From Escherichia phage JLBYU08: a DNA stretch of 64,000 nt. Below, piece after piece: positions 24,015-34,368 of the stretch (position 1 is its first letter; every line of letters begins with the position of its first letter). The stretch lies in sequence record OK272482.1. One strand, given 5' to 3'. Position numbers and translations under genes: made by a program. Below the pieces are notes generated by a model, which did no database searches, had not been told where the DNA came from, and saw only the letters and a program-made list of their open reading frames with translations.

Positions 24015-24368
24015 TTAGTGACAATCACCCCAATTACGACCACACAAGTATTCACCTGTGATCTGGAACGGGACTCCCATCATTTTAGAAGCTTGCCAGA
24101 AGCAATGTACCACCATTTCGCCCACAGGACTCCAGATAAGTTCAAGCTTTCCGTCATCGTTCAAGATAGGATCGTACACCGTGTTTCCGTCTCTGTCAAC
24201 CACTTCGTTTCCGTTTTCATCCTTGCGTGCCTTTTTGTACTTATGACCGTCGAACACATGAAGTTTGGCCTCCTGCTCTGCCTTAAATGCTTCCAATTCT
24301 TCAATTGTGTCGAAGGTGTACACAGTCTTATACTTCGGTGTGTCAGGTACTTGAAGCTGATATTCATC
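24015..24368 (-). CDS. DNA polymerase (family A) exon 2: motif C (H|DEYQLQV) and C-terminal end ...NWGDCH
   Basis: Supplies the HDE motif and terminal His absent from the upstream 809-aa ORF; follows the omega-G of the intron. Confidence 0.75.
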   Translation of the reverse strand, partial: DEYQLQVPDTPKYKTVYTFDTIEELEAFKAEQEAKLHVFDGHKYKKARKDENGNEVVDRDGNTVYDPILNDDGKLELIWSPVGEMVVHCFWQASKMMGVPFQITGEYLCGRNWGDCH

Positions 24369-24697
24369 CATCTGTTCAGGTAGGTCGTTAAGCTACCCCG
24401 CACCATTACGTGCATAGCCATACAGTTTCCTGTATGGATCGGACTACCTCACTGCCTTGGTAACAAGGCACCTCCCATTTCGACCGCACTTGCTGGCCTA
24501 CTCTACTCGCTTCTTCACACCAACCTATGTTGGAGCTATGCTTTCGATAGTCTCTGAACGTTCATCCTCTCGGATGCTTCGCTGCGGATTAGCATATTGA
24601 GCTTTTACCATACTCAGGTGTAAAAGTCAACTTAGCTTTCCCGTCAATTAAAGAGGTTATTCGACATAGATCACTCTATGAAGCCACAATGTTATTT
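24369..24697 (-). mobile_element. group I self-splicing intron, 329 nt, no internal ORF
   Basis: AAUUGACGGGAAAG, GUUCAGAGACUA and GGUAGUCCGA elements; exon 1 ends in U, intron ends in G; in-frame TAA just inside intron. Confidence 0.8.
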
Positions 24698-27121
24698 ATG
24701 GTAATAGATAATACGACGGACACCTTCATCGTACCACCCACGCTTCACCATTTGGTGGTGCATGAGTATCCCAACTAAGTCACACAACGATGCACCACCA
24801 TTTTGTTGGTATGCATTAAGTAAAGAGTGTTTAGATCGGGTCCAGATGGCATGACCATCAAAAGAGTATATAAACTTCTTACCAGTTGCTTCCCAGAATT
24901 TCTCCAGATCCTCTTTACGCCCCTTAAGACCAGGGTTGGCATCCCAAAGCGCATCGATTACCCTTTGCCCCAACTCTGGAGAGATATCCAGCATGTCTGC
25001 AACTTTATCTTTTTGTGCCCCGTACATAACCCCATACGTGATAGGTTTACCGTCGTTACGGGACACCTCTCTGCCTGCTACTTTTGTATATGCCTCAGCA
25101 TTGTTTTGGTGTGCGTCCCCGTTACTTACAACATCATAATACAAGCCGTTGTCGAACTCAAAGGCACCCCAAGCCCCGATAAGCTGCTCTAAGTTGGACC
25201 CGTCAATACCGATCTCAAAGTATCCTGGAGGAACACCCCACAGACTACGCATCTCTTTACCCATAACCACTTTAGGAGATGGTTTAGGCATGTTTGCACA
25301 AATACTGTGTTTCTGTCGGGAAGTGTTTGTTAGCCCAGAACTTTTAGCAGGAAGCTTATGGTCAATCTTCAAACGTGGGTGATTAAGAAGACCAGTATCA
25401 ACCTTATCCTCCTTGATTGGATCAAGGACCGATCTGCGGTTTCGCAATGATAACCACAAGACGATATCTTTAGCCATCTCTCCGTTCAATTTTTCAAGAT
25501 TTGGGCATAGGTGTCCAAACGTATCTTTCAGCTGCGGAGAAGTAATAAGTGCTCTGGCTTTTCTACGTATTTTCCCGAATACTTCCTTTTTAATCCTTTC
25601 GGAGTTAGGAAAGCTTCGGAACTTGTGCACGGTTGTCTGAAACTTAGCATCAGTTTTGTTCCAGAAGTTGATAATCAGGTCACAATACTCTGACTCTAAA
25701 AGCTCGTCCATGTATGCATATACTCGTGCATCAACATCTGCATCAGGTAGAGCTTTCTTCTTGCTGTCTTTAGTTACATCCTTAGTTCTCCACATTGTCG
25801 GAAGCCAACCAGCACTGATCAGGTATCGCTTAATGTCGTCCTGATTGCTGATTTTCATAGGTATCTTGCAGTCCGGCATTCGCTTCTGCTGTAGATCACT
25901 TATTGCCTGATCCATCAGCTCTTTAGGTAAAGGTTGTGGTGTGGAAGTGCCCTTAATATAGCCTCTCAAGAAATCAGCCATCTTATCAGGGTCTTTGCAG
26001 CCCATCTCTTCACACCATTTTATCCCCATCTTGCTGACATCTCCTGTGGAGGTAAATGCTCGCTTAGGCGGGGCTTTGAACTCCAAAGCACTCATGTCCA
26101 CAGGATAGCCAAGCTTATCTTTTAACCATTTCCAACCATTGTTGGAGATTGTCCCATCTTGGTTAAACGGCTTTTCAGGGAACTTGGGCCGCTGAGACAT
26201 TGACAGCTCTTTTAAAGGAAGTTGAGGTTCAACACGATCAGCGATTTCTTTCATCCACGCATCGCAACGGTCACGTAAAGCAATAGCTCCATCTATGTCG
26301 AAGTATACACCCTGACGGGCCTGCAGCTCCATCAGGAAGTGCTGCAGCATGCCTCGACGTAGTGCGTTCTTCCAGGTGATCTTCTTGAACCCTTTCGGCT
26401 TCTCTTTGGCTGGATCGTACATAAAGTTCTGCATGTCAGATTTGCCGTAGAATACACCTTTTGATTCCGCTACCAGCTCTTTCCAGAGCAGCTCCTGGAT
26501 GATAACGTCCTCGAATACACGATCCACATACTTCCACAACGGAAGATCGCGCCAGTCATCAATTTGAACTTTCTGGTTACCAAGGGCGTAGCCCCATGCC
26601 ATAAGGCCGTGAGGACCAACAGGCTGCATTTTCTTAGTAACCGGGTTGAATACAGAGTCCGGACAACCTTTTGGTAAAGGGCGATCAGGCCACAAGATTC
26701 GGCTCATCGCCAACGTATCAAACAGGTTAACCTGGTGGTCGTTGATAGTCCCCATACATTTAGGATCACGGAACATATCAAAATGAATACCGGATAATCT
26801 CTCCATCAGCATAAAGTCATAACTGTAGCAGTTATGGCAGTTCAAAGCTGTTGGTGACCAGTCGGAATTGCCTGTAAGCCAACCCTCCAACTCTGAAAAA
26901 TCTGCTATGCGAACTTCAAAATCTTTATAAAAAGTTTTCTTTGCCAGAATAAAGTTCTTAGCCTTCTCTATATCCTCTTCGGAGTAGTGTGTGCGGTCAT
27001 TTAGAGGAAGGAACAGCATAAAACGGTTCTTATTCAGCTCTTTAAACAGGCCGCAGTGATAATAAAGATCTGGGTCTTCCAGCAAACCGGATGACTCAAA
27101 ATCGAACGACCACATGCTCAT
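24698..27121 (-). CDS. DNA polymerase (family A) exon 1: 3'-5' exonuclease and polymerase domains through motif B
   Basis: N-terminal WSFDFESSG exo motif; IGIDGSNLEQL (motif A-like); KPITYGVMYGAQ (motif B); AAGGAGAA SD. Confidence 0.9.
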
Positions 27122-27179: not shown

Positions 27180-29258
27180 TTAAAAAGGTGTTTCATCATC
27201 CTCAAAACCAGGGACCGGATCAGAGGATGGATCATCGTATTGGAGGTCTTCCTGCGTGTCAATAGGCTTGACAGTGGGTGTTACAACCTTATCAGCCACA
27301 ACCTTGCCCATAGGTGTTTCTACAACTGCATGCTCCTGATCCTCAAACATAGCCTGAGGTCTCCAAACAACCTCCCCACCTTCTCCGTCTGTGAACATCT
27401 GCATTTCTTTGTCCCAGTACCAATTACTGGCATCATAGAACTTACCTGTATGCGGATCCATAACTAAAGTGTCAGCAATACCTAAAGTTTTTGCTGGACG
27501 GTTTTTAAGACCTACCAGACGGACACGTCCACGAGAACGATCCACCATTTCTTCGGCCTCGACACCTATGACTACCCAACTCAACTGTTCAAGCCCAGCC
27601 GATCCTCGCAAATTCTCTTTTCGCACAGGATACCAGAAAGGTAATGGGTTACCATCCTTGTCCTTAGGGGGCACAATCTCTGTACGTTTGAGGTGAGCGA
27701 TCACCAAGATAAACACGTTAAACTGCTTACAAAACGCAGCCAGTTGGGTCATAGCCATGTCCAGTTCTTTTCGCTCATCCTTAACATTAAGCCCTGAAAT
27801 TACCATGGACAGGTGATCCAGCACAATATAACGACAATGGTACAGGCAAACCATTTGCTTAAGCTTGGTAATCAACTCGTCCACTGGAATAGACCCGAAA
27901 TGTTTGAACACTTTGATTTTTCCAGCTTTTGCCCATGATTGGTGAATCTCTGCGTGTTCTTGATCAGTTAAAAACTGGCTAGGATCTTCAACAAACTCTT
28001 TAACATCAAACCCTAACTGGTTTGCATACAAGGAGTTAATTGCTTCCTCTGGGTCCTCCTCAAGATGAATCATGCATAGACGATCATCCTCTTCATAGTC
28101 ATCGGCCTTCGGGCATGTCGGGTCCATTAGGTATCTTGCAATACAGTGTTCCAGTTTTTTAGCCACGGTTGTTTTACCGCCGCCTGATGGACCTGTAAGC
28201 ATTACAAGTGTCCCTTTGTGCAAGCCTTTTAGCATTTTTTGCAGTTTTGGGAACTCTGCACTGATATCTACCCCGTTGGAAGTCTTTTTCCGCAAAGACT
28301 CGATAGAGAAGTCTTCTAAATCCGACACAGCATCAGGCACATATTTAACAGGGTGCCGGAACATGTTGACAATATCTTCCAGCTTTTTAGCCTTCAGCAT
28401 GTCTCGGATATCTTTTACACCGTCAGGGTCATTTACTTCACCAGGGTATTCTACGTGGTAAACGTTATCAGCCATCAAAAATGCTGCGATATTGTGCGTG
28501 GCCTCAACACCTTTAATGACGTGTTTTTGCTTCTCTACCTCGTTAGCTGCATCGTTATCCATTGCCAGCACAACTGTTCCATAGCTACGGATAAACTTCT
28601 CATTGTTTGCAAAAGTATCTACTGCGTTTGCACATCCACAGTTAATTCCAACAAAAGGCAGGCAGGGTTTTCCTGCCAGATCACCACCGTTGATAACTGC
28701 GTCGATCCCGTCCTGGACCTCTTTAGCCCACTGCTTCACCTTTGCCGGGGCTTTAGCGTTGGTGAGAATCCCTTTTACTTGTATCTGATATGCAGCCTGC
28801 CATGCTGCAATAACATCACCTTCTCCCTCACAAACGTTAATCTGCTTACGGTTGTTGGAAGATGCACACAGCTTTTGACCAAACATCTGGGAGTTGGCCT
28901 TTACGATACCAACAACGGAGAAATGGCCCCTTTGCTCTTTAGGAATAGTCCAGTCACGCTTTTTGAAACCAGACAGATTTCCGTAGCGGTCGTAATATGG
29001 GAAATATGTTGCAGTGACTGTCACACCGTCTTCTTGGGACAATGCTGATCGCACACCAAAATATTGTGCAGCCATCAGACCGATATTTTGTTGTGGGACA
29101 GGGACAATTTTAGTATTTTCTAAAACAGTCTCTACAGTTTCAACTTCTTTTTCATCACGATAGTCTCGTTTCACACTTCCCCCACTTTTATACTTAGTTT
29201 CTTTCGGGTTTGGCTCACCGAAACGGTTGTATGCAGATGCCATAAATTTACTTCCCAT
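27180..29258 (-). CDS. primase-helicase (T7 gp4-like: TOPRIM primase plus DnaB-like helicase), 692 aa, acidic tail ending in F
   Basis: VCEGEGD and LAMDNDAANE TOPRIM motifs; Walker A TGPSGGGKTT; Walker B IVLDHL; C-terminus EDDETPF; AAGGAG SD. Confidence 0.85.
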   Translation of the reverse strand: MGSKFMASAYNRFGEPNPKETKYKSGGSVKRDYRDEKEVETVETVLENTKIVPVPQQNIGLMAAQYFGVRSALSQEDGVTVTATYFPYYDRYGNLSGFKKRDWTIPKEQRGHFSVVGIVKANSQMFGQKLCASSNNRKQINVCEGEGDVIAAWQAAYQIQVKGILTNAKAPAKVKQWAKEVQDGIDAVINGGDLAGKPCLPFVGINCGCANAVDTFANNEKFIRSYGTVVLAMDNDAANEVEKQKHVIKGVEATHNIAAFLMADNVYHVEYPGEVNDPDGVKDIRDMLKAKKLEDIVNMFRHPVKYVPDAVSDLEDFSIESLRKKTSNGVDISAEFPKLQKMLKGLHKGTLVMLTGPSGGGKTTVAKKLEHCIARYLMDPTCPKADDYEEDDRLCMIHLEEDPEEAINSLYANQLGFDVKEFVEDPSQFLTDQEHAEIHQSWAKAGKIKVFKHFGSIPVDELITKLKQMVCLYHCRYIVLDHLSMVISGLNVKDERKELDMAMTQLAAFCKQFNVFILVIAHLKRTEIVPPKDKDGNPLPFWYPVRKENLRGSAGLEQLSWVVIGVEAEEMVDRSRGRVRLVGLKNRPAKTLGIADTLVMDPHTGKFYDASNWYWDKEMQMFTDGEGGEVVWRPQAMFEDQEHAVVETPMGKVVADKVVTPTVKPIDTQEDLQYDDPSSDPVPGFEDDETPF

Positions 29259-30012
29259 TAATTCTGCTCCTTACTGCAGGCTCGTTTGCTAAGAATACGG
29301 CTTTTGCCCAGCCACGTGGTGTGAGGCTTCGGATCATCTTCGTTCTTGCACTCTTTCCACCCAGCTTGGCGTGTTGCATGGAATACCCGCTAACCGCGTC
29401 AACTATTTGCTGGACAGGTTTTGTGGCCGGGATTATAAATCCATTACCTATCCAGCCGCAAGTTATTTTTGGATAGGCATCACGTGGAGCTATAAATTCA
29501 GGAAACCAGGGGTTTACATCATCCTCCGGTAAATACCCGCCATAGTCAGAAGGGTGAAAACGGTAATCAGGTTTGCGCCACAGTGTGGACATAACACCCA
29601 CAGGATTCTCTACATGCCACGGGCAATCGTAAATCTCTCCCAACTCTTCTGCAACCCGAGCATCCTTTACAGCATTAATCTGGATCAGCGGGTCCTTAGC
29701 CAGCTTCTTCTTAAAGTGTGCAGCACCTGACACCGCTAAGTGGGTGCACGGAGGAAATGCAAGAACAAAGTCCGGAGCTGGGTACATGCAGAAAGTTTCC
29801 TGAGGGAACCATGGATCAATCCAATAATCTACATAGTGAATATTTGGATGATCGGTGATCACCTCTGCATAACTGCCGTGGTCAGCACCTTCTGCGTTAA
29901 AGCACAGGCACAGATATCCAGCTTTTGCCCAGTCAATGACTGCACCGCCAGATCCGTCAAATAGACTCCACACAACACCTTTGTGGTAGTGTTCTTTATA
30001 GATAAATTTCAA
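29248..30012 (-). CDS. DNA (cytosine-5)-methyltransferase-like protein, about 254 aa, probable TTG start
   Basis: Motif I LFDGSGG, motif IV FPPCTHLAVSG, motif VI HVENPVG; AGGAGA SD before TTG; small and lacking an obvious target-recognition domain. Confidence 0.6.
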   Translation of the reverse strand: MKFIYKEHYHKGVVWSLFDGSGGAVIDWAKAGYLCLCFNAEGADHGSYAEVITDHPNIHYVDYWIDPWFPQETFCMYPAPDFVLAFPPCTHLAVSGAAHFKKKLAKDPLIQINAVKDARVAEELGEIYDCPWHVENPVGVMSTLWRKPDYRFHPSDYGGYLPEDDVNPWFPEFIAPRDAYPKITCGWIGNGFIIPATKPVQQIVDAVSGYSMQHAKLGGKSARTKMIRSLTPRGWAKAVFLANEPAVRSRINGK

Positions 30013-30030
30013 TTTGCTGTCTCCTAATGC

Positions 30031-30057
30031 AAAAAGCCCCACCCTTTCGGGCAGGGC
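30031..30057 (-). terminator. rho-independent terminator (copy 2 of identical hairpin)
   Basis: Minus strand: GCCCTGCCC-GAAA-GGGTGGGGC followed by TTTTT. Confidence 0.7.
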
Positions 30058-30063
30058 CTAGTG

Positions 30064-30546
30064 TTAAACCCGGATACCTATTGTATACTCGGTGGATACC
30101 AATGTCAAATCTAAATTTAAAATTTCTTGCATCTCATAGTATGCATCCAGGGTGAGATACATTTCCCCATCCTTTTCTACATACTTGTCAAGGTGTTTGA
30201 GGCACTTTGGATAACTATTAAGGGCAGCCTTTAGGCACTCAAACTCTGTGCTGTTGATGAATCCTTCCATCTTGGCTACCCGTTCTGGGGTAACGATAGC
30301 ACTGTAGTGAGATTTAGCTTCCTGAATGCAATGGGTCCAAGCATCAACTTTCTCTTCGAAAAGTCCGAAGAACTTCTTTTTGGTGAGCTTCAGATTCTTT
30401 AAGTGCTTAAGCACTCGGTTGCCGATCACAGATACATCACGAAACTTAAAGATCACTTTGTCAATATCCTCGCGGCCTATTTTTACAAAGCAAGCCTCGC
30501 ACATTTCAGGAGAGGCATAACCTACTTTCCACATAAAATCTGACAT
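30064..30546 (-). CDS. hypothetical protein, 160 aa
   Basis: ORF with AAGGAGAG SD. Confidence 0.6.
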   Translation of the reverse strand: MSDFMWKVGYASPEMCEACFVKIGREDIDKVIFKFRDVSVIGNRVLKHLKNLKLTKKKFFGLFEEKVDAWTHCIQEAKSHYSAIVTPERVAKMEGFINSTEFECLKAALNSYPKCLKHLDKYVEKDGEMYLTLDAYYEMQEILNLDLTLVSTEYTIGIRV

Positions 30547-30558
30547 AACACTCTCTCC

Positions 30559-30954
30559 TTATTCCTGAAAAGCAACGATATCATATGCACTTACCAATGA
30601 TTCCGGTGAAGAATGACTCCAGTCCAGGTTATCAGAGTATCCAGCGTGCTGTGCACCGCTACGTAGTTTGTATTTTACCCACTTACCTGGTGCAGGGTTT
30701 TCACCACCTTCCCATGCTTCCCAGTCTTCTGACAGGCCGTCCTGAGAGCAGTCATCCACTTCACTGATAATCTTAGGGTTTGGCACCAAGATCCCTGCAG
30801 GCTCCTCCTTCCGGATAAGTGTCCACACAGCGTAGGTGTCTGAGCAGGCGCATGATAGCAAAGTATATCCACTATTTAGAACTTCTGCAAGCTCTTTTTC
30901 AGCATCTTCCAATTTGGTTAAGTGGTATTGGATAATCTTCACACCTGTAATCAT
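30559..30954 (-). CDS. hypothetical protein, 131 aa, acidic
   Basis: ORF with GGGAGG SD; TGATG coupling. Confidence 0.6.
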   Translation of the reverse strand: MITGVKIIQYHLTKLEDAEKELAEVLNSGYTLLSCACSDTYAVWTLIRKEEPAGILVPNPKIISEVDDCSQDGLSEDWEAWEGGENPAPGKWVKYKLRSGAQHAGYSDNLDWSHSSPESLVSAYDIVAFQE

Positions 30955-31259
30955 CAGAAACCTCCCACTTCTTCAGCAAATGCAGCTGCTGTCGTCGCTG
31001 CATCCAGATAGGACTCTAGTTCACGAGCTGCACGTTTGTAAATTGAGTGGCGAATATCGTTTGGCAGTTGGTGGAAGTCCACCTCTTCACCGTTGCGGTA
31101 AACATGCACATCAGTGATCTGTCTAAATCCGTAATAGTCAACATCAGAATCACGGCACTCCGGGTCTGGCAACTGGACAACTGCCTGAGCTTCTACAGTG
31201 AACATATCGTCAAGTTCGAAATCGATTTCAAAAGTGTATGGTTTATAACGTTTCATCAT
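30954..31259 (-). CDS. hypothetical protein, about 101 aa
   Basis: AAAGAG SD before internal ATG. Confidence 0.55.
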   Translation of the reverse strand: MMKRYKPYTFEIDFELDDMFTVEAQAVVQLPDPECRDSDVDYYGFRQITDVHVYRNGEEVDFHQLPNDIRHSIYKRAARELESYLDAATTAAAFAEEVGGF

Positions 31260-31272
31260 TTGATTGTACTCT

Positions 31273-32598
31273 TTATTGATCAGACTTATCTTTCGCAATT
31301 AAGGTCGGGGCAAGTTTGTAATAACGGAAGCCACCACCACCTTGCCAGTTTACAGACTTAGAAATACCACCTTGATCTTCACCGTCGATCACTTTTTCCA
31401 AGCGCGGAATAATATGGGTATGACAATGATCACCTAGCTCGATTGAGATCCAACATCTTTTCATCTTGTGAGCTACAGCGGCGGTAGTTCCCGAACCACC
31501 GAATGAATCCAATACCAAATCACCTTCTCGCGTACACATTTCGAAAATCCGCTTCAAAAGCGCTTCCGGTTTTTTCCCATTTTTGAAACTAACGCCGCCT
31601 TCATTTGCTATTCCATTCCAACTAATGTCTGTCCAAACATCAGTTATCAGTTCCGCAGGTTGCATCTCACCATCAATTTCCAAAAGCCTGTTGGAGTAAA
31701 AGACCATTTGCCTACCATTTGCGATATAAAATCCTTCAACATCCTCATTTGGATGTACATAAACCTTATCTCTATCTTTCTTTGACTTCTCTATAGTTTC
31801 TTTTCTCTTTATTTTAGCACCACCACCAATTGCAACAGATTGAAATACACGTTCTGCATTATCAATTGCGAATTGTGCTAATTCATCATCGAATGTATTA
31901 GGCAGTTTTTTCTTGGCTTCTTTTGCATCTTTATAGCCATTGGCCTTTGCAAACGCATCGGCAATACCGCACCACGTCCAATTTTTATAATGGTCGTCCG
32001 GGTTTAATAAGTATTTGTTATACCCTGTATCATACCCTTTAGGTATATAGATTTTGTTAAGCGGTTTCTGGGTGCGATCTTTTGCATATACAAGCAAAAA
32101 GTTTGCTGTGGAGAAAACTGTAGCTCCTGTTGCCTTAAATCCTGAAGGGGAGTTTGTGGTCATCGATATGGTATTTAACTGATTTGCACGACCAAAAATC
32201 TCGTCCATCAAAACTTTTAAATACGCCATTTCGCAATCATCTAAGTGAACGAATATTACCCCATCATCACTTAGAAGATTACGAATTATTTCTAACCTAT
32301 CCCTCATTAAGCCCAGCCAAATGGAATGCTCCAGGCTATCATCGTAGTGCTCAAAAGCCCTTCCGGTATTGAATGGTGGGTCGATGTAAACACACTTCAC
32401 TTTGCCTGTATACTCTTGCTCTAGCGCCTTCAATGCTAATAAGTTATCTCCAAAAATCAGTTTATTATCAAAAATACCGTTTTCGGTCACTTTCTGGCTG
32501 CGGTAAGACTTGCTCGAATCTTCTAACAAAATGTGCGGCTCTAGCTTTTTGCGCTCGTTTTTACCTATCCAGGTAAGTTCTAATTTAGTTTTGCTCAT
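31273..32598 (-). CDS. DNA methyltransferase, beta-class amino-MTase (N6-adenine or N4-cytosine), 441 aa
   Basis: Motif IV DPPF near N-terminus and motif I DSFGGSGTT near C-terminus (beta-class order); AAGGAGAG SD. Confidence 0.8.
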   Translation of the reverse strand: MSKTKLELTWIGKNERKKLEPHILLEDSSKSYRSQKVTENGIFDNKLIFGDNLLALKALEQEYTGKVKCVYIDPPFNTGRAFEHYDDSLEHSIWLGLMRDRLEIIRNLLSDDGVIFVHLDDCEMAYLKVLMDEIFGRANQLNTISMTTNSPSGFKATGATVFSTANFLLVYAKDRTQKPLNKIYIPKGYDTGYNKYLLNPDDHYKNWTWCGIADAFAKANGYKDAKEAKKKLPNTFDDELAQFAIDNAERVFQSVAIGGGAKIKRKETIEKSKKDRDKVYVHPNEDVEGFYIANGRQMVFYSNRLLEIDGEMQPAELITDVWTDISWNGIANEGGVSFKNGKKPEALLKRIFEMCTREGDLVLDSFGGSGTTAAVAHKMKRCWISIELGDHCHTHIIPRLEKVIDGEDQGGISKSVNWQGGGGFRYYKLAPTLIAKDKSDQ

Positions 32599-32659
32599 CG
32601 TTTGGTGCTCTCCTTAGTTTTTGTGGGGAGGAGTGCCTCCCCTTTATACTCACATCTTA

Positions 32660-33001
32660 CTACTCAAGGTCTTCAGAGTCAAGCTCAAAAAGAATCAAAC
32701 TGTGCATGCCTGCAGAGAGATTAACACACCCTGCAACAATAAGGGTTTGATAGTAAGGTTCAGCACCCTCAATGTCTTCGTTAAAATCCACAACAAGGTA
32801 GTCACCTTTGTTAAAGGTGTATTTGTCCGATGTAAACGCAAAACCTGCCCAGTCCCCTACTGCAGGATCTTTATCAGTCACCTTTGTTAGCAGTAGATCT
32901 TTTTCACGAGATCTTTTAGTAAAATCGTGAATCACAACATCCTTCTCTTCAGGAGTCGAATTGCCACACACGTAGTTAACGATATTTCTCCACAAACTCA
33001 T
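32660..33001 (-). CDS. hypothetical protein, 113 aa
   Basis: ORF with GAAGAGGGGG SD; ATGA coupling to helicase gene. Confidence 0.6.
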   Translation of the reverse strand: MSLWRNIVNYVCGNSTPEEKDVVIHDFTKRSREKDLLLTKVTDKDPAVGDWAGFAFTSDKYTFNKGDYLVVDFNEDIEGAEPYYQTLIVAGCVNLSAGMHSLILFELDSEDLE

Positions 33002-34368
33002 ACGTCCCCCTCTTCTGCTCTGGTTTCAAAATCTTTCCTGACAATTTTGTCTAAGTCAGGGAATGTTGTATTGTAAAACTCTACTACTCGCGGGTCAACA
33101 ATAATGTCAACTTCTCTTAGGGGACGCAACAAGTTTATTCCTTGTATTGTCTTAACTCTACTCAAAGCGACATACGTCATCCCAGGGGAGAAAGCTCCGT
33201 TCTTTCCAAGGTCTAGGTTGTAACAATCTAGCGTAAGTCCTTGACTTTTATGAGATGTTACGGCGTACCCAGATTTCAGAGGAAGTTGCTTGTATGACCC
33301 AATCACTACCCTCTCTATAAACTTCTCCATCTTCCTTTCTGCAATGTTGTATCTCTGAGAGGGCTTATACTCGTTATTCTCCCACAACCTCTGCTCTATG
33401 TCAACCTGTGTTCCATCTTCAAGCTCTACCACCACCGCCTTGTTCTTAAATTTAACAATTGTGGCACGTGTTCCGTTAACATAATAAGGTACTTTGTGCG
33501 TCGGGTCAACATCGTTGGCGGTTATCATAACTTTCATGCCAATTTTCAACCTCATCTCCTGCTCAACTGGCAGGGTGGAGGGAAACTTACCCTTCATTTC
33601 ACCAGTGTATACCTTCTCTGGGGCGTTGATGGCATCATAGAACCTTCTGTTTACTTCCTCTGCTTGTTTGTTGGTGGCGCAAATTGTGAGAGCATCTGTT
33701 GGTACACCACCTTTGTAACAGCGAGCATTGAGTTCTGCTACAACCTCTTTTATGCGACGACCCTCACGAACACAGTTGAGCATTGTGGCAAATCGAATAG
33801 AATCCTGTCGGAACTGATCTATTAGGGCTATGTTGTGGAGGTCAAGCTCTTTCCAAGATTCGGTGTAGCAACACAGGTCCGTATGGTAGAAGTTGAAGTA
33901 GGCTTCCTTCTCCATAGAAGAGACAACAGGAGGTGCCTGGTAAAAATCGCCAAACAATATGACCTGTATGCCTCCGAAAGGTTTGTCATTTTTTCGAAGG
34001 AAGCGGAGTTTCCTATCCATCTCTATAAACTTATCAGCACGGATCATAGAGATTTCATCGATAATTAGGATGGTAAATGCCTTGCTTTTCAAAGGCTTCG
34101 CTGTTTTTGCCCTTATTGCGGTCCAGTCCGACTCCATGCTCACACCTGCTGCAAGATCGAATGTTCGGTGTGCTGTTGCTCCATTAACGTTTAAAGCGGC
34201 TACCCCTGTCGGGGCAACCGTTATGCAAGAGTCTCCATACATTGACTGGATCATGTTGATGAGATACGTCTTCCCACAACCTGCAGGTCCTGAAACGAAG
34301 ACATTCTCACCACTCATGATTGCAATGAGGGCAGCATCTGTGCCTACGTCATACTGCCCTTTTTCCAT
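32998..34368 (-). CDS. Dda/PIF1-like superfamily 1 DNA helicase, 456 aa
   Basis: Walker A GPAGCGKT, TGVAA motif, Walker B IIDEISM; GAGGAGG SD; TAATG coupling to rIIB. Confidence 0.8.
   Translation of the reverse strand: MEKGQYDVGTDAALIAIMSGENVFVSGPAGCGKTYLINMIQSMYGDSCITVAPTGVAALNVNGATAHRTFDLAAGVSMESDWTAIRAKTAKPLKSKAFTILIIDEISMIRADKFIEMDRKLRFLRKNDKPFGGIQVILFGDFYQAPPVVSSMEKEAYFNFYHTDLCCYTESWKELDLHNIALIDQFRQDSIRFATMLNCVREGRRIKEVVAELNARCYKGGVPTDALTICATNKQAEEVNRRFYDAINAPEKVYTGEMKGKFPSTLPVEQEMRLKIGMKVMITANDVDPTHKVPYYVNGTRATIVKFKNKAVVVELEDGTQVDIEQRLWENNEYKPSQRYNIAERKMEKFIERVVIGSYKQLPLKSGYAVTSHKSQGLTLDCYNLDLGKNGAFSPGMTYVALSRVKTIQGINLLRPLREVDIIVDPRVVEFYNTTFPDLDKIVRKDFETRAEEGDV

What the first reader, a model, noticed from the sequence alone, without database searches (positions are those of the whole stretch)
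29248..32598. Two different DNA methyltransferases inside the replication module
A small C5-MTase-like protein (motifs I, IV with PC, and VI ENV; about 254 aa with little room for a target-recognition domain) sits directly upstream of the primase-helicase, and a beta-class amino-MTase (DPPF then FGGSGTT) lies 1.2 kb further on. Phage-encoded orphan MTases commonly protect the genome from host restriction. The truncated C5-type enzyme could instead act on a different substrate or in a hypermodification pathway.
Basis: partly seen in the sequence, partly recalled or inferred. Interest (0 to 1): 0.55.

Follow-up and report, generated by a model that had tools for sequence, protein, structure and literature searches.

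The report
Two phage DNA methyltransferases, one host-derived
This rV5-like E. coli phage carries two working DNA methyltransferase genes among its replication genes: a common small phage cytosine methylase, and a shortened copy of the methylase subunit of an E. coli restriction system that the phage most likely uses to disguise its DNA. Both are ordinary in kind, but the second has a clear origin.

Summary
The window is a Vequintavirus (98.7% identical to phage Murica).

**Gene 29248-30012 (- strand, 254 aa, TTG start).**
- It is 53% identical to the 711-bp Dcm-like gene of a Drexlerviridae phage. That protein has C82/E128/K175/K176, the residues mutated in phage K42 Dcm.
- K42 Dcm was shown by LC-MS to make 5mC and to trigger retron Ec86.

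**Gene 31273-32598 (- strand, 441 aa).**
- It is a beta-class N6-adenine MTase, 96% identical in protein (about 94% in DNA) to the first 440 residues of the 568-aa Mod subunit of a type III-like Mod-Res system found in 28 of 5,426 complete E. coli genomes.
- It lacks the C-terminal domain, which in EcoP15I docks the Res subunit.
- It is a 1.34-kb cassette, present in about 85 and absent from about 30 Vequintavirus records, with junctions I could map.

Both genes are under purifying selection (dN/dS 0.02-0.2). Self-protective pre-methylation is the best reading. Target sites remain unknown. Both genes are already annotated in GenBank, so interest is modest.

The parts
29248..30012 (-). Small Dcm-like C5-cytosine DNA methyltransferase, 254 aa, TTG start; overlaps the primase-helicase gene by 11 nt
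30019..30024 (-). AGGAGA ribosome-binding site, 7 nt (30013-30018) upstream of the TTG start of the Dcm-like gene
   Evidence: Read directly from the sequence; Murica annotates an RBS here.
30034..30059 (-). Intrinsic-terminator-like hairpin followed by a T-run, between the upstream 160-aa gene and the Dcm-like gene
   Evidence: Pattern scan: 11 pairs, 7 of them G-C. A terminator is annotated at the equivalent place in Murica.
30080..30108 (-). Sigma-70-like promoter match (TTGACA-17-TACAAT, 11 of 12)
   Evidence: Consensus scan only; function not shown.
31273..32598 (-). CTD-less type III Mod-like N6-adenine methyltransferase, 441 aa, beta class (DPPF 73-76, FGGSGTT 366-372)
   Evidence: PF01555 E 3.7e-42. 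PADLOC MTase_III PDLC03636 E 6.7e-203, covering profile positions 2-444 of 575. Best PDB sequence hits are the Mod subunits 6k0w and 4zcf. 95.9% identical to residues 2-440 of the E. coli Mod. dN/dS 0.06-0.12.
31257..32597 (-). Approximately 1.34-kb acquired cassette: the host mod fragment, inserted at the start codon of the downstream phage gene
   Evidence: Absent from AlexBoehm and about 30 other Vequintavirus records. The stretch of DNA homology to E. coli nearly coincides with it (about window 31264-32611). An 11-nt deletion near the 3' end creates the stop codon.
30954..31256 (-). Downstream 100-aa phage gene of unknown function (phrog_4240). Its original ribosome-binding site now serves the Mod gene.
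   Evidence: BASEL phages annotate a 303-nt CDS here. The 114-aa form in the ORF list (to 31298) is an out-of-frame remnant of mod, 'INKEYN'.
30064..30546 (-). 160-aa gene of unknown function between the two MTase genes
   Evidence: phrog_12900, unknown function; no Pfam hit.
30559..30954 (-). 131-aa gene of unknown function between the two MTase genes
   Evidence: phrog_11995, unknown function; no Pfam hit.

Best explanation
Both genes encode active SAM-dependent DNA methyltransferases. They are made alongside the replication proteins and methylate newly made phage DNA, so that progeny virions carry protective marks whatever host they were grown in.

(1) The 254-aa protein belongs to a large family of compact phage C5-cytosine methyltransferases, the same family as phage K42 Dcm. 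It makes 5-methylcytosine at a short site. That site is still undetermined for this protein; CCWGG-type is the lead from K42.

(2) The 441-aa protein is the methyltransferase-plus-recognition part of the Mod subunit of an E. coli type III-like restriction-modification system. The phage captured it by illegitimate recombination as a 1.34-kb cassette. It has kept the host enzyme's recognition region almost unchanged, so it should methylate the same site and make the phage immune to that particular system. It lacks the C-terminal domain that docks the Res subunit in EcoP15I, so it should act as a pure methylase.

Shown here: gene identity, fold, origin of the cassette, its junctions, and purifying selection. 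Inferred: enzymatic activity of these two particular proteins, their target sites, and the protective effect.
For: Identity of the Dcm-like gene:
- phrog_757 E 1.3e-86.
- The catalytic Cys89 and Glu135 are invariant across 44 diverse family members.

Link to an experimentally tested member:
- The Ec86 preprint reports a 711-bp dcm in the Drexlerviridae phage K42, with residues C82, E128, K175 and K176. It reports 5mC on msDNA by LC-MS, lost in the catalytic mutant.
- The Drexlerviridae phage tonijn has a 711-bp homologue with exactly those residues at those positions, and it is 53% identical to the window protein.

Mod origin:
- 95.9% protein and 93.5-94.5% DNA identity to the E. coli Mod.
- The host gene is followed by a ResIII / REase_III gene.
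- Only 3 of the 18 substitutions fall in residues about 175-335, the TRD-equivalent region.
- The cassette is a presence/absence polymorphism with mapped junctions.

Role of the missing domain:
- In EcoP15I, the CTD (aa 539-644) of ModA makes extensive contacts with Res. Mod2 dimerises through the NTD and MTase domains and is a stand-alone methylase (PMC4490356).
- The phage protein ends where EcoP15I residue about 522 aligns.

Selection: dN/dS is 0.06-0.12 for Mod (0.085 against the E. coli copy) and 0.02-0.2 for the Dcm-like gene.

Phage-encoded methylation does occur in this genus:
- In Bas51 virion DNA, 509 of 516 GTAC adenines plus several hundred other adenines are methylated, independently of the GATC enzyme.
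- As far as I know, E. coli K-12 has no GTAC methylase.

CCWGG is not avoided in the window (observed/expected 1.71).
Against: - Neither protein from this phage, or from any Vequintavirus, has been assayed. Neither target site is known.
- Vequintavirinae are highly sensitive to all RM systems tested in BASEL, so these enzymes give no broad protection.
- The Mod cassette is missing from about 30 relatives and frameshifted or truncated in some (EmilHeitz; P0128, P0129 and P0141). It is therefore dispensable.
- The only Vequintavirus MTase with an assigned motif (GATC) is a different gene, bas51_0176, outside this window.
- The host locus also carries a conserved DrmD-like SNF2 gene, so it may not be a plain type III system.
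Confidence: 0.62

Rival explanations
1. The small C5-type enzyme is not a methyltransferase. It would be a CmoX-like carboxymethyltransferase that uses host-made carboxy-SAM, or another first step in cytosine hypermodification.
For: - CmoX is marked by an SPPC motif and by an Arg replacing HhaI Asn304 (PMC12783734). The window protein has FPPC. By hand alignment to the DNMT3 motif 'GRSWSVPV', it has Arg233 at the equivalent place.
- E. coli makes Cx-SAM itself, so the phage would not need its own cmoA.
Against: - The family member K42 Dcm yielded 5mC by LC-MS.
- Arg233 and the second Pro of PPC vary across the wider family (TPEG, TPYG, TPNG; FPVC, FPEC).
- DNMT3A/B carry Arg at what I take to be the same position (hand alignment of sequences recalled from memory) and use SAM.
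- No cmoA, amide ligase, TET or glycosyltransferase is annotated beside the gene or in the complete Bas51 genome.
Confidence: 0.05
2. The methylation serves the phage's own biology, for example replication timing, packaging, transcription or mismatch-repair evasion, rather than evasion of restriction.
For: - Both genes sit in the replication module, and the Dcm-like gene overlaps the primase-helicase gene.
- The phages are broadly sensitive to restriction.
- The BASEL authors found no simple link between MTase genes and restriction resistance in Drexlerviridae.
Against: - A Mod copy 96% identical to a host restriction system's own methylase, with the recognition region preserved, is hard to explain other than as mimicry of that system's self-mark.
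- The cassette is dispensable in about 30 relatives, which fits an accessory counter-defence gene, not a core function.
Confidence: 0.15
3. The 441-aa Mod fragment is an inactive remnant of an accidental gene capture, because it lacks the C-terminal domain.
For: - It was truncated by an illegitimate junction plus an 11-nt deletion.
- It is frameshifted or shortened in some phages and absent from others.
Against: - dN/dS is 0.06-0.12 among phage copies despite dS up to 0.15.
- All catalytic motifs are intact.
- In EcoP15I the CTD is not part of the catalytic, recognition or dimerisation surfaces.
- The gene is placed exactly behind a functional phage ribosome-binding site.
Confidence: 0.1

Closest known systems
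Phage K42 (KarlJaspers-like, Drexlerviridae) Dcm, the trigger of retron Ec86/Eco1
   Same: Same family of roughly 230-260-aa stand-alone enzymes. The Drexlerviridae homologue tonijn is 53% identical. The catalytic Cys, the Glu and the first Lys are at equivalent positions (C89/E135/K182 here, against C82/E128/K175). Both have a DNMT3-like fold with a minimal recognition region.
   Different: The Vequintavirus clade has His instead of Asp after the Cys-Thr (CTH), Ile instead of the second Lys (PKIT), a 5-residue insertion in the mini recognition loop, and 10 extra N-terminal residues. Its site specificity, and whether it triggers retron Eco1, have not been tested.
Canonical bacterial C5-MTases (M.HhaI, M.HaeIII, E. 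coli Dcm; Pfam PF00145)
   Same: Rossmann-type fold, motif I FxGxG, catalytic Pro-Cys, and the motif VI Glu-Asn.
   Different: No PF00145 hit. No QxRxR motif VIII. The recognition region is about 40 aa instead of 80-100 or more. The C-terminus resembles the DNMT3 motif X. Total length is about 75% of the smallest classical enzymes.
Type III Mod subunits (EcoP15I Mod, PDB 4zcf; H. pylori Mod, 6k0w; Mbo45V Mod, 7dsu)
   Different: There is no C-terminal domain, which is the Res-docking domain in EcoP15I. There is no adjacent res gene. The gene lies in a lytic phage genome as a mobile cassette.
Phage orphan methyltransferases acquired from host RM systems (a general, well-described class, recalled from my own knowledge of the literature)
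   Same: A stand-alone methylase in a phage genome, with a bacterial RM origin, presumed to protect the phage itself.
   Different: Here the donor system, the nucleotide-level junctions and the exact domain that was lost can all be named.

Membership tests
C5-cytosine DNA methyltransferase superfamily | SAM-binding motif I (FxGxG) | tested here: met
   FDGSG at residues 18-22.
C5-cytosine DNA methyltransferase superfamily | Motif IV Pro-Cys with the catalytic cysteine | tested here: met
   PPC at 87-89. Cys89 is invariant in 44 diverse members.
C5-cytosine DNA methyltransferase superfamily | Motif VI Glu-Asn-Val | tested here: met
   Present as ENP at 135-137. Glu135 is invariant and Asn136 is at least 90% conserved.
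C5-cytosine DNA methyltransferase superfamily | Motif VIII QxRxR and a large target-recognition domain between motifs VIII and IX | tested here: not met
   Replaced by RDAYPK(I/K)T. Only about 40 residues precede RSLTPRG.
C5-cytosine DNA methyltransferase superfamily | Match to the curated profile PF00145 | tested here: not met
   No Pfam family at E <= 0.01. A few family members carry a precomputed PF00145 hit.
C5-cytosine DNA methyltransferase superfamily | Fold similarity to solved C5-MTases | tested here: met
C5-cytosine DNA methyltransferase superfamily | Produces 5-methylcytosine in DNA | not testable with these tools
   Shown by LC-MS for the family member K42 Dcm only.
Small phage Dcm-like family (phrog_757; K42 Dcm) | Full-length profile match, 210-260 aa stand-alone architecture, conserved Cys, Glu and Lys positions | tested here: met
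   - phrog_757 E 1.3e-86 over residues 10-261 of the 264-aa ORF form submitted, i.e. about 1-251 of the 254-aa protein.
- 2,054 cluster representatives, nearly all 210-260 aa.
- Residue positions match in tonijn.
CmoX C5-carboxymethyltransferases | SPPC motif plus a conserved Arg replacing HhaI Asn304 | tested here: inconclusive
   The protein has FPPC, and has Arg233 by hand alignment only. Neither feature is conserved across the family. No structural superposition was available.
CmoX C5-carboxymethyltransferases | Genomic association with cmoA and/or an amide ligase (CmoY) | tested here: not met
   - Neighbours are small ORFs of unknown function.
- No such gene is annotated in the complete Bas51 genome.
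- E. coli could supply Cx-SAM itself, so a missing cmoA is weak evidence.
Type III restriction-modification Mod subunit | Beta-class N6/N4 MTase with motif IV (DPPY/F) before motif I | tested here: met
   DPPF at 73-76, FGGSGTT at 366-372. PF01555 E 3.7e-42.
Type III restriction-modification Mod subunit | Profile match to type III Mod families, with the recognition domain inserted in the MTase domain | tested here: met
   PADLOC MTase_III PDLC03636 E 6.7e-203. Best PDB sequence hits are 6k0w and 4zcf.
Type III restriction-modification Mod subunit | C-terminal domain (Res-contacting in EcoP15I) | tested here: not met
   - Profile positions 445-575 are not covered.
- The protein stops where residue 441 of the 568-aa host Mod aligns.
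- The CTD is conserved in cellular homologues.
Type III restriction-modification Mod subunit | Adjacent res gene | tested here: not met
   tblastn of the E. coli Res against the window finds nothing at E <= 0.01. Neighbours are small phage ORFs and a Pif1-like helicase.

The most novel reading that the evidence does not exclude
The CTD-less Mod may be more than a self-methylase. It is 96% identical to the host Mod, and colinear with it up to the point of truncation, and so probably retains the surfaces through which Mod dimerises. It could therefore form mixed dimers with the resident host Mod that cannot dock Res. That would poison the restriction complex during infection as a dominant-negative anti-restriction protein, protecting even DNA that is not yet methylated.
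Probability: 0.12. Interest if true: 0.6.

Novelty: new member of a known kind. Interest (0 to 1): 0.3.

Why it matters
- Phage-encoded methylases decide which restriction systems a therapeutic or typing phage can overcome. They can also betray the phage to retrons.
- The origin of the Mod-like gene yields a directly testable prediction. rV5-like phages that carry the cassette should plate on the minority of E. coli strains (many from cattle and STEC surveys) that carry the cognate Mod-Res system. Cassette-free relatives such as AlexBoehm or LL12 should not.
- The gene is also a natural experiment showing which part of a type III Mod is needed for methylation alone.
- The Dcm-like gene predicts sensitivity to retron Eco1.
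- None of this changes how such systems are understood in general.

Tried and rejected
1. Sequence-only searches gave nothing usable for the Dcm-like protein.
   - Pfam, NCBIfam and PADLOC returned no hit.
   - The top PDB sequence hit, a sperm-tail ciliary protein at E 0.0047, was dismissed as a chance match to a Pro/Gly/Tyr-rich loop.
   - A family profile reached DNMT3B only at E 0.27.
2. [quoted passage not shown]
   - The escape mutations D69G, D79G and T83P fit only bas51_0176, a 177-aa enzyme with no homologue in this window. That assignment is rejected.
3. I could not assign the GTAC motif, or the 349 'other' m6A sites of Bas51, to the 441-aa enzyme or to bas51_0200.
   - A palindromic 4-bp site argues against a type III Mod for GTAC, but nothing decides it.
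4. Literature searches for restriction-digest or methylome data on rV5-like phages, and for the specificity of the small Dcm-like family, found nothing.
5. I looked for a link to ARMADA II or Druantia papers that mention Vequintavirinae. ARMADA has a different gene set, so it is not the donor system.
7. A 442-aa CTD-less homologue from metagenomes (P0169) lies in a cellular-looking context, not a phage. I make no claim that CTD-less Mods are typical of phages.


Full report
**What the window is.** The 6.1 kb around the finding is 98.7% identical to Escherichia phage Murica and 96-98% identical to dozens of other rV5-like phages of the genus Vequintavirus. All genes in the region are on the - strand. 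In order of transcription they are: rIIA, rIIB, a Pif1/Dda-like helicase (32998-34368), a 113-aa ORF, the 441-aa MTase (31273-32598), three small ORFs, the small C5-like MTase (29248-30012), the primase-helicase (27180-29258) and the DNA polymerase. GenBank records already label the two genes 'Dcm-like C5 cytosine methyltransferase' and 'putative N6 adenine methyltransferase' or 'type III restriction-modification system methylation subunit'.

**Checking the observation.**
- The mechanical ORF starts at GTG 30042 (264 aa). That codon lies inside a terminator-like hairpin (30059-30034).
- An AGGAGA ribosome-binding site sits 7 nt before TTG 30012. This is the start used in Murica and the BASEL phages and gives 254 aa.
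- Motif VI reads ENP rather than ENV. Motif positions are FDGSG 18-22, PPC 87-89, ENP 135-137 in the small protein, and DPPF 73-76 and FGGSGTT 366-372 in the large one.

**The small C5-type enzyme: family and fold.**
- It has no Pfam, NCBIfam or PADLOC match, but it matches phrog_757 at E 1.3e-86.
- The 5.8-billion-protein collection held 3,529 homologues at E <= 0.001, and all of the best 120 listed are 219-262 aa.
- An exhaustive profile search found 2,054 cluster representatives at 50% identity, again almost all 210-260 aa.
- tblastn finds the family in 1,502 of 50,697 phage records. These are mostly Escherichia, Klebsiella and Salmonella phages, including Drexlerviridae, Dhillonvirus, Kagunavirus and Vequintavirinae.
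- An AlphaFold2 model built on 38 homologues is confident (pLDDT 91.3).
- Foldseek puts the DNMT3A/3B catalytic domains first, at E about 1e-6.
- In a diverse 44-sequence alignment the catalytic Cys89 and Glu135 are invariant. The canonical QxRxR motif is absent, and the recognition region is only about 40 residues.
- The protein is therefore a real but minimal member of the C5-MTase superfamily, closest in design to DNMT3.

**The small C5-type enzyme: link to experiment.**
- A preprint on retron Ec86 (10.1101/2023.08.16.553469) isolated escape mutants of the Drexlerviridae phage K42. All of them disrupted a 711-bp 'Dcm-like' gene.
- Expression of that gene raised 5mC on the retron msDNA by LC-MS. 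A C82A/E128A/K175A/K176A mutant did not. Changing the CCTGG in the msDNA stem abolished defence.
- I could not obtain the K42 sequence. The Drexlerviridae phage tonijn, however, carries a 711-bp homologue whose product has C, E, K and K at exactly positions 82, 128, 175 and 176. It is 53% identical to the window protein (E 5e-87).
- Near-identical genes are annotated 'Dcm-like' in BASEL Drexlerviridae.
- The window protein thus belongs to a family with a member shown to make 5mC in DNA.
- The site specificity of the family has only been assumed to be CCWGG. In this window CCWGG is over-represented rather than avoided (observed/expected 1.71). That is compatible with protection by methylation but proves nothing.

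**The hypermodification alternative.**
- The second-best structural neighbour, CmoX, transfers a carboxymethyl group from carboxy-SAM. It is marked by an SPPC motif and by an Arg in place of HhaI Asn304 (PMC12783734).
- The window protein has FPPC. By hand alignment with the DNMT3 motif X, it has an Arg (R233) at the corresponding place.
- Three points argue against this reading. Both positions vary across the wider family. DNMT3 enzymes, as I recall their sequences and align them by hand, carry the same Arg and use SAM. The K42 enzyme yields 5mC.
- No cmoA, ligase, TET or glycosyltransferase gene lies nearby or is annotated in the complete genome of the close relative Bas51.
- I give this reading about 5%.

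**The 441-aa enzyme: identity and origin.**
- It is a beta-class N6/N4 MTase (PF01555, E 3.7e-42).
- Its best matches among solved structures are the type III Mod subunits 6k0w and EcoP15I Mod.
- Its closest relative in the protein collection is a 567-aa 'site-specific DNA-methyltransferase' of E. coli at 96% identity. More distant cellular homologues are nearly all 560-600 aa.
- At the DNA level the phage gene matches 28 of 5,426 complete E. coli genomes at about 94.5%.
- In strain SMN152SH1 the 568-aa gene lies in an island at tRNA-Sec. The gene order there is mad1-like HTH, a DrmD-like SNF2 protein, AbiD, a hypothetical protein, the MTase, and then a 912-aa ResIII-family protein.
- PADLOC calls the pair MTase_III (E 7.4e-285, full length) and REase_III (E 8.9e-191).
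- The same SNF2, variable module, Mod, Res order occurs in an Acinetobacter genome.
- The phage protein covers profile positions 2-444 of 575 and is 95.9% identical to residues 2-440 of the host Mod. No Res homologue is in the window.

**How the phage acquired it.**
- About 85 Vequintavirus records carry the gene. About 30 lack exactly 1,343 bp at this place, among them AlexBoehm, EduardKellenberger, LL12 and I29.
- Comparison with AlexBoehm shows where the insert sits. It begins at the ATG that originally started the downstream 100-aa gene, so the Mod gene now uses that gene's ribosome-binding site.
- DNA homology to E. coli runs from the start codon to about codon 452 of the host gene, and there it is fused to the ATG of the downstream gene.
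- An 11-nt deletion relative to E. coli shifts the frame and creates the stop after residue 441.
- The N-terminal extension of the '114-aa ORF' in the mechanical ORF list is the out-of-frame remnant 'INKEYN' of mod.
- Patchy microhomology at both junctions points to illegitimate recombination.

**What was lost, and what that implies.**
- In the EcoP15I structure, Mod has four parts: an N-terminal domain, an MTase domain, an inserted recognition domain, and a C-terminal domain (aa 539-644).
[quoted passage not shown] Dimerisation uses the N-terminal and MTase domains. Mod2 alone is a functional methylase (PMC4490356).
- The window protein aligns to EcoP15I up to residue about 522.
- The missing 128 residues form a conserved, confidently modelled domain in cellular homologues.
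- The phage therefore kept what is needed to recognise and methylate, and lost the part that, by position, docks the nuclease-motor subunit. Homology of the two C-terminal domains is inferred from position only.
- Only three of the 18 amino-acid differences from the host Mod fall in the recognition region, so the same target site is expected.

**Are the genes in use?**
- Pairwise Nei-Gojobori estimates give dN/dS of 0.06-0.12 among phage Mod copies and 0.085 between the phage and E. coli copies (dS 0.24). For the Dcm-like gene the range is 0.02-0.2. Both are under purifying selection.
- Some lineages have broken the Mod gene: EmilHeitz has a frameshift, and truncated variants appear. This fits an accessory gene that is only sometimes useful.

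**Experimental context for the genus.**
- The BASEL study found Vequintavirinae 'exceptionally susceptible' to the RM systems it tested. Protection by these enzymes can only be narrow.
- Bas51 (WalterGehring) has four annotated MTase genes.
- Its native nanopore data show methylation of 1,405 of 1,406 GATC adenines and 509 of 516 GTAC adenines, plus 576 other sites.
- A T83P mutant of the GATC enzyme keeps 511 GTAC sites and 349 other sites.
- The GATC enzyme is bas51_0176 (residues D69, D79 and T83 match). That gene is outside this window and is neither of the two genes in the finding.
- Which of the remaining adenine methylases makes the GTAC mark and the 'other' marks is open. A palindromic 4-bp site is an unlikely type III target. 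The several hundred 'other' sites are about the number expected for a 5-bp asymmetric motif, but that is only arithmetic.

**Verdict.**
- The protective interpretation is well supported in origin for the Mod-like gene and plausible for the Dcm-like gene. The hypermodification idea is not supported.
- Both genes are already annotated. The Dcm-like family has a published function as a 5mC methylase and retron trigger. Orphan phage methylases of host origin are a known kind.
- What this analysis adds is the donor system, the cassette junctions, the loss of the presumed Res-docking domain, and the presence/absence polymorphism. Together these give a clean, testable prediction.
- Interest is modest (0.3).

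Noticed in passing
window 24018-27121 (- strand); insert 24369-24697: The DNA polymerase gene is interrupted. Residues 1-808 and 809-925 are separated by a 329-bp insert that is absent from phage MaxBurger. Rfam finds a group I intron (RF00028, 72.5 bits, E 1.6e-18) at 24419-24707. Relatives carry homing-endonuclease genes in the polymerase gene instead.
   Followed up: partly
GenBank MG0656xx records (hits H4, H11, H19, H86-H89 and others): About 39 records named 'Campylobacter phage', with host given as C. jejuni, are 97-99% identical to E. coli Vequintaviruses across this region. The host label looks doubtful.
   Followed up: no
L003 (phage EmilHeitz/Bas49) 1315-5035: In this relative a 1-bp indel shortens the Mod-like gene to 1,035 nt. 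A homing-endonuclease gene is also inserted between the Dcm-like gene and the primase-helicase gene.
   Followed up: partly
Bas51 genome (L007-L009); genes bas51_0176 and bas51_0200, both outside this window: Vequintaviruses carry two further adenine methylase genes. Virion DNA is fully methylated at GATC and at GTAC. GTAC and 349 other m6A sites persist when the GATC enzyme is inactivated, and the enzymes responsible have not been assigned.
   Followed up: partly
whole window: Observed/expected counts: GTAC 0.52 and CTAG 0.27 are depleted, while CCWGG 1.71, TGCA 1.65 and GATC 1.34 are enriched. GTAC is depleted even though it is fully methylated in a close relative.
   Followed up: no
L011 4115-13464 (E. 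coli SMN152SH1) and L015 1366-10571 (Acinetobacter sp. Root1280): The donor Mod-Res pair is preceded in both genomes by a DrmD-like SNF2 gene and a variable module (AbiD, or an OLD-like ATPase with DUF4276). It may be a composite defence system rather than a plain type III RM.
   Followed up: partly
window 30034-30108 (- strand): A near-consensus sigma-70-like promoter (11 of 12) is followed immediately by a strong terminator-like hairpin, and then by the ribosome-binding site and TTG start of the Dcm-like gene. This is an unusual promoter-then-terminator order that might regulate expression of the gene.
   Followed up: no
window 32625-32642: A G+C-rich hairpin (GGGGAGGAGTGCCTCCCC) lies just upstream of the Mod ribosome-binding site. 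It is native to the phage and is also present in cassette-free AlexBoehm.
   Followed up: no
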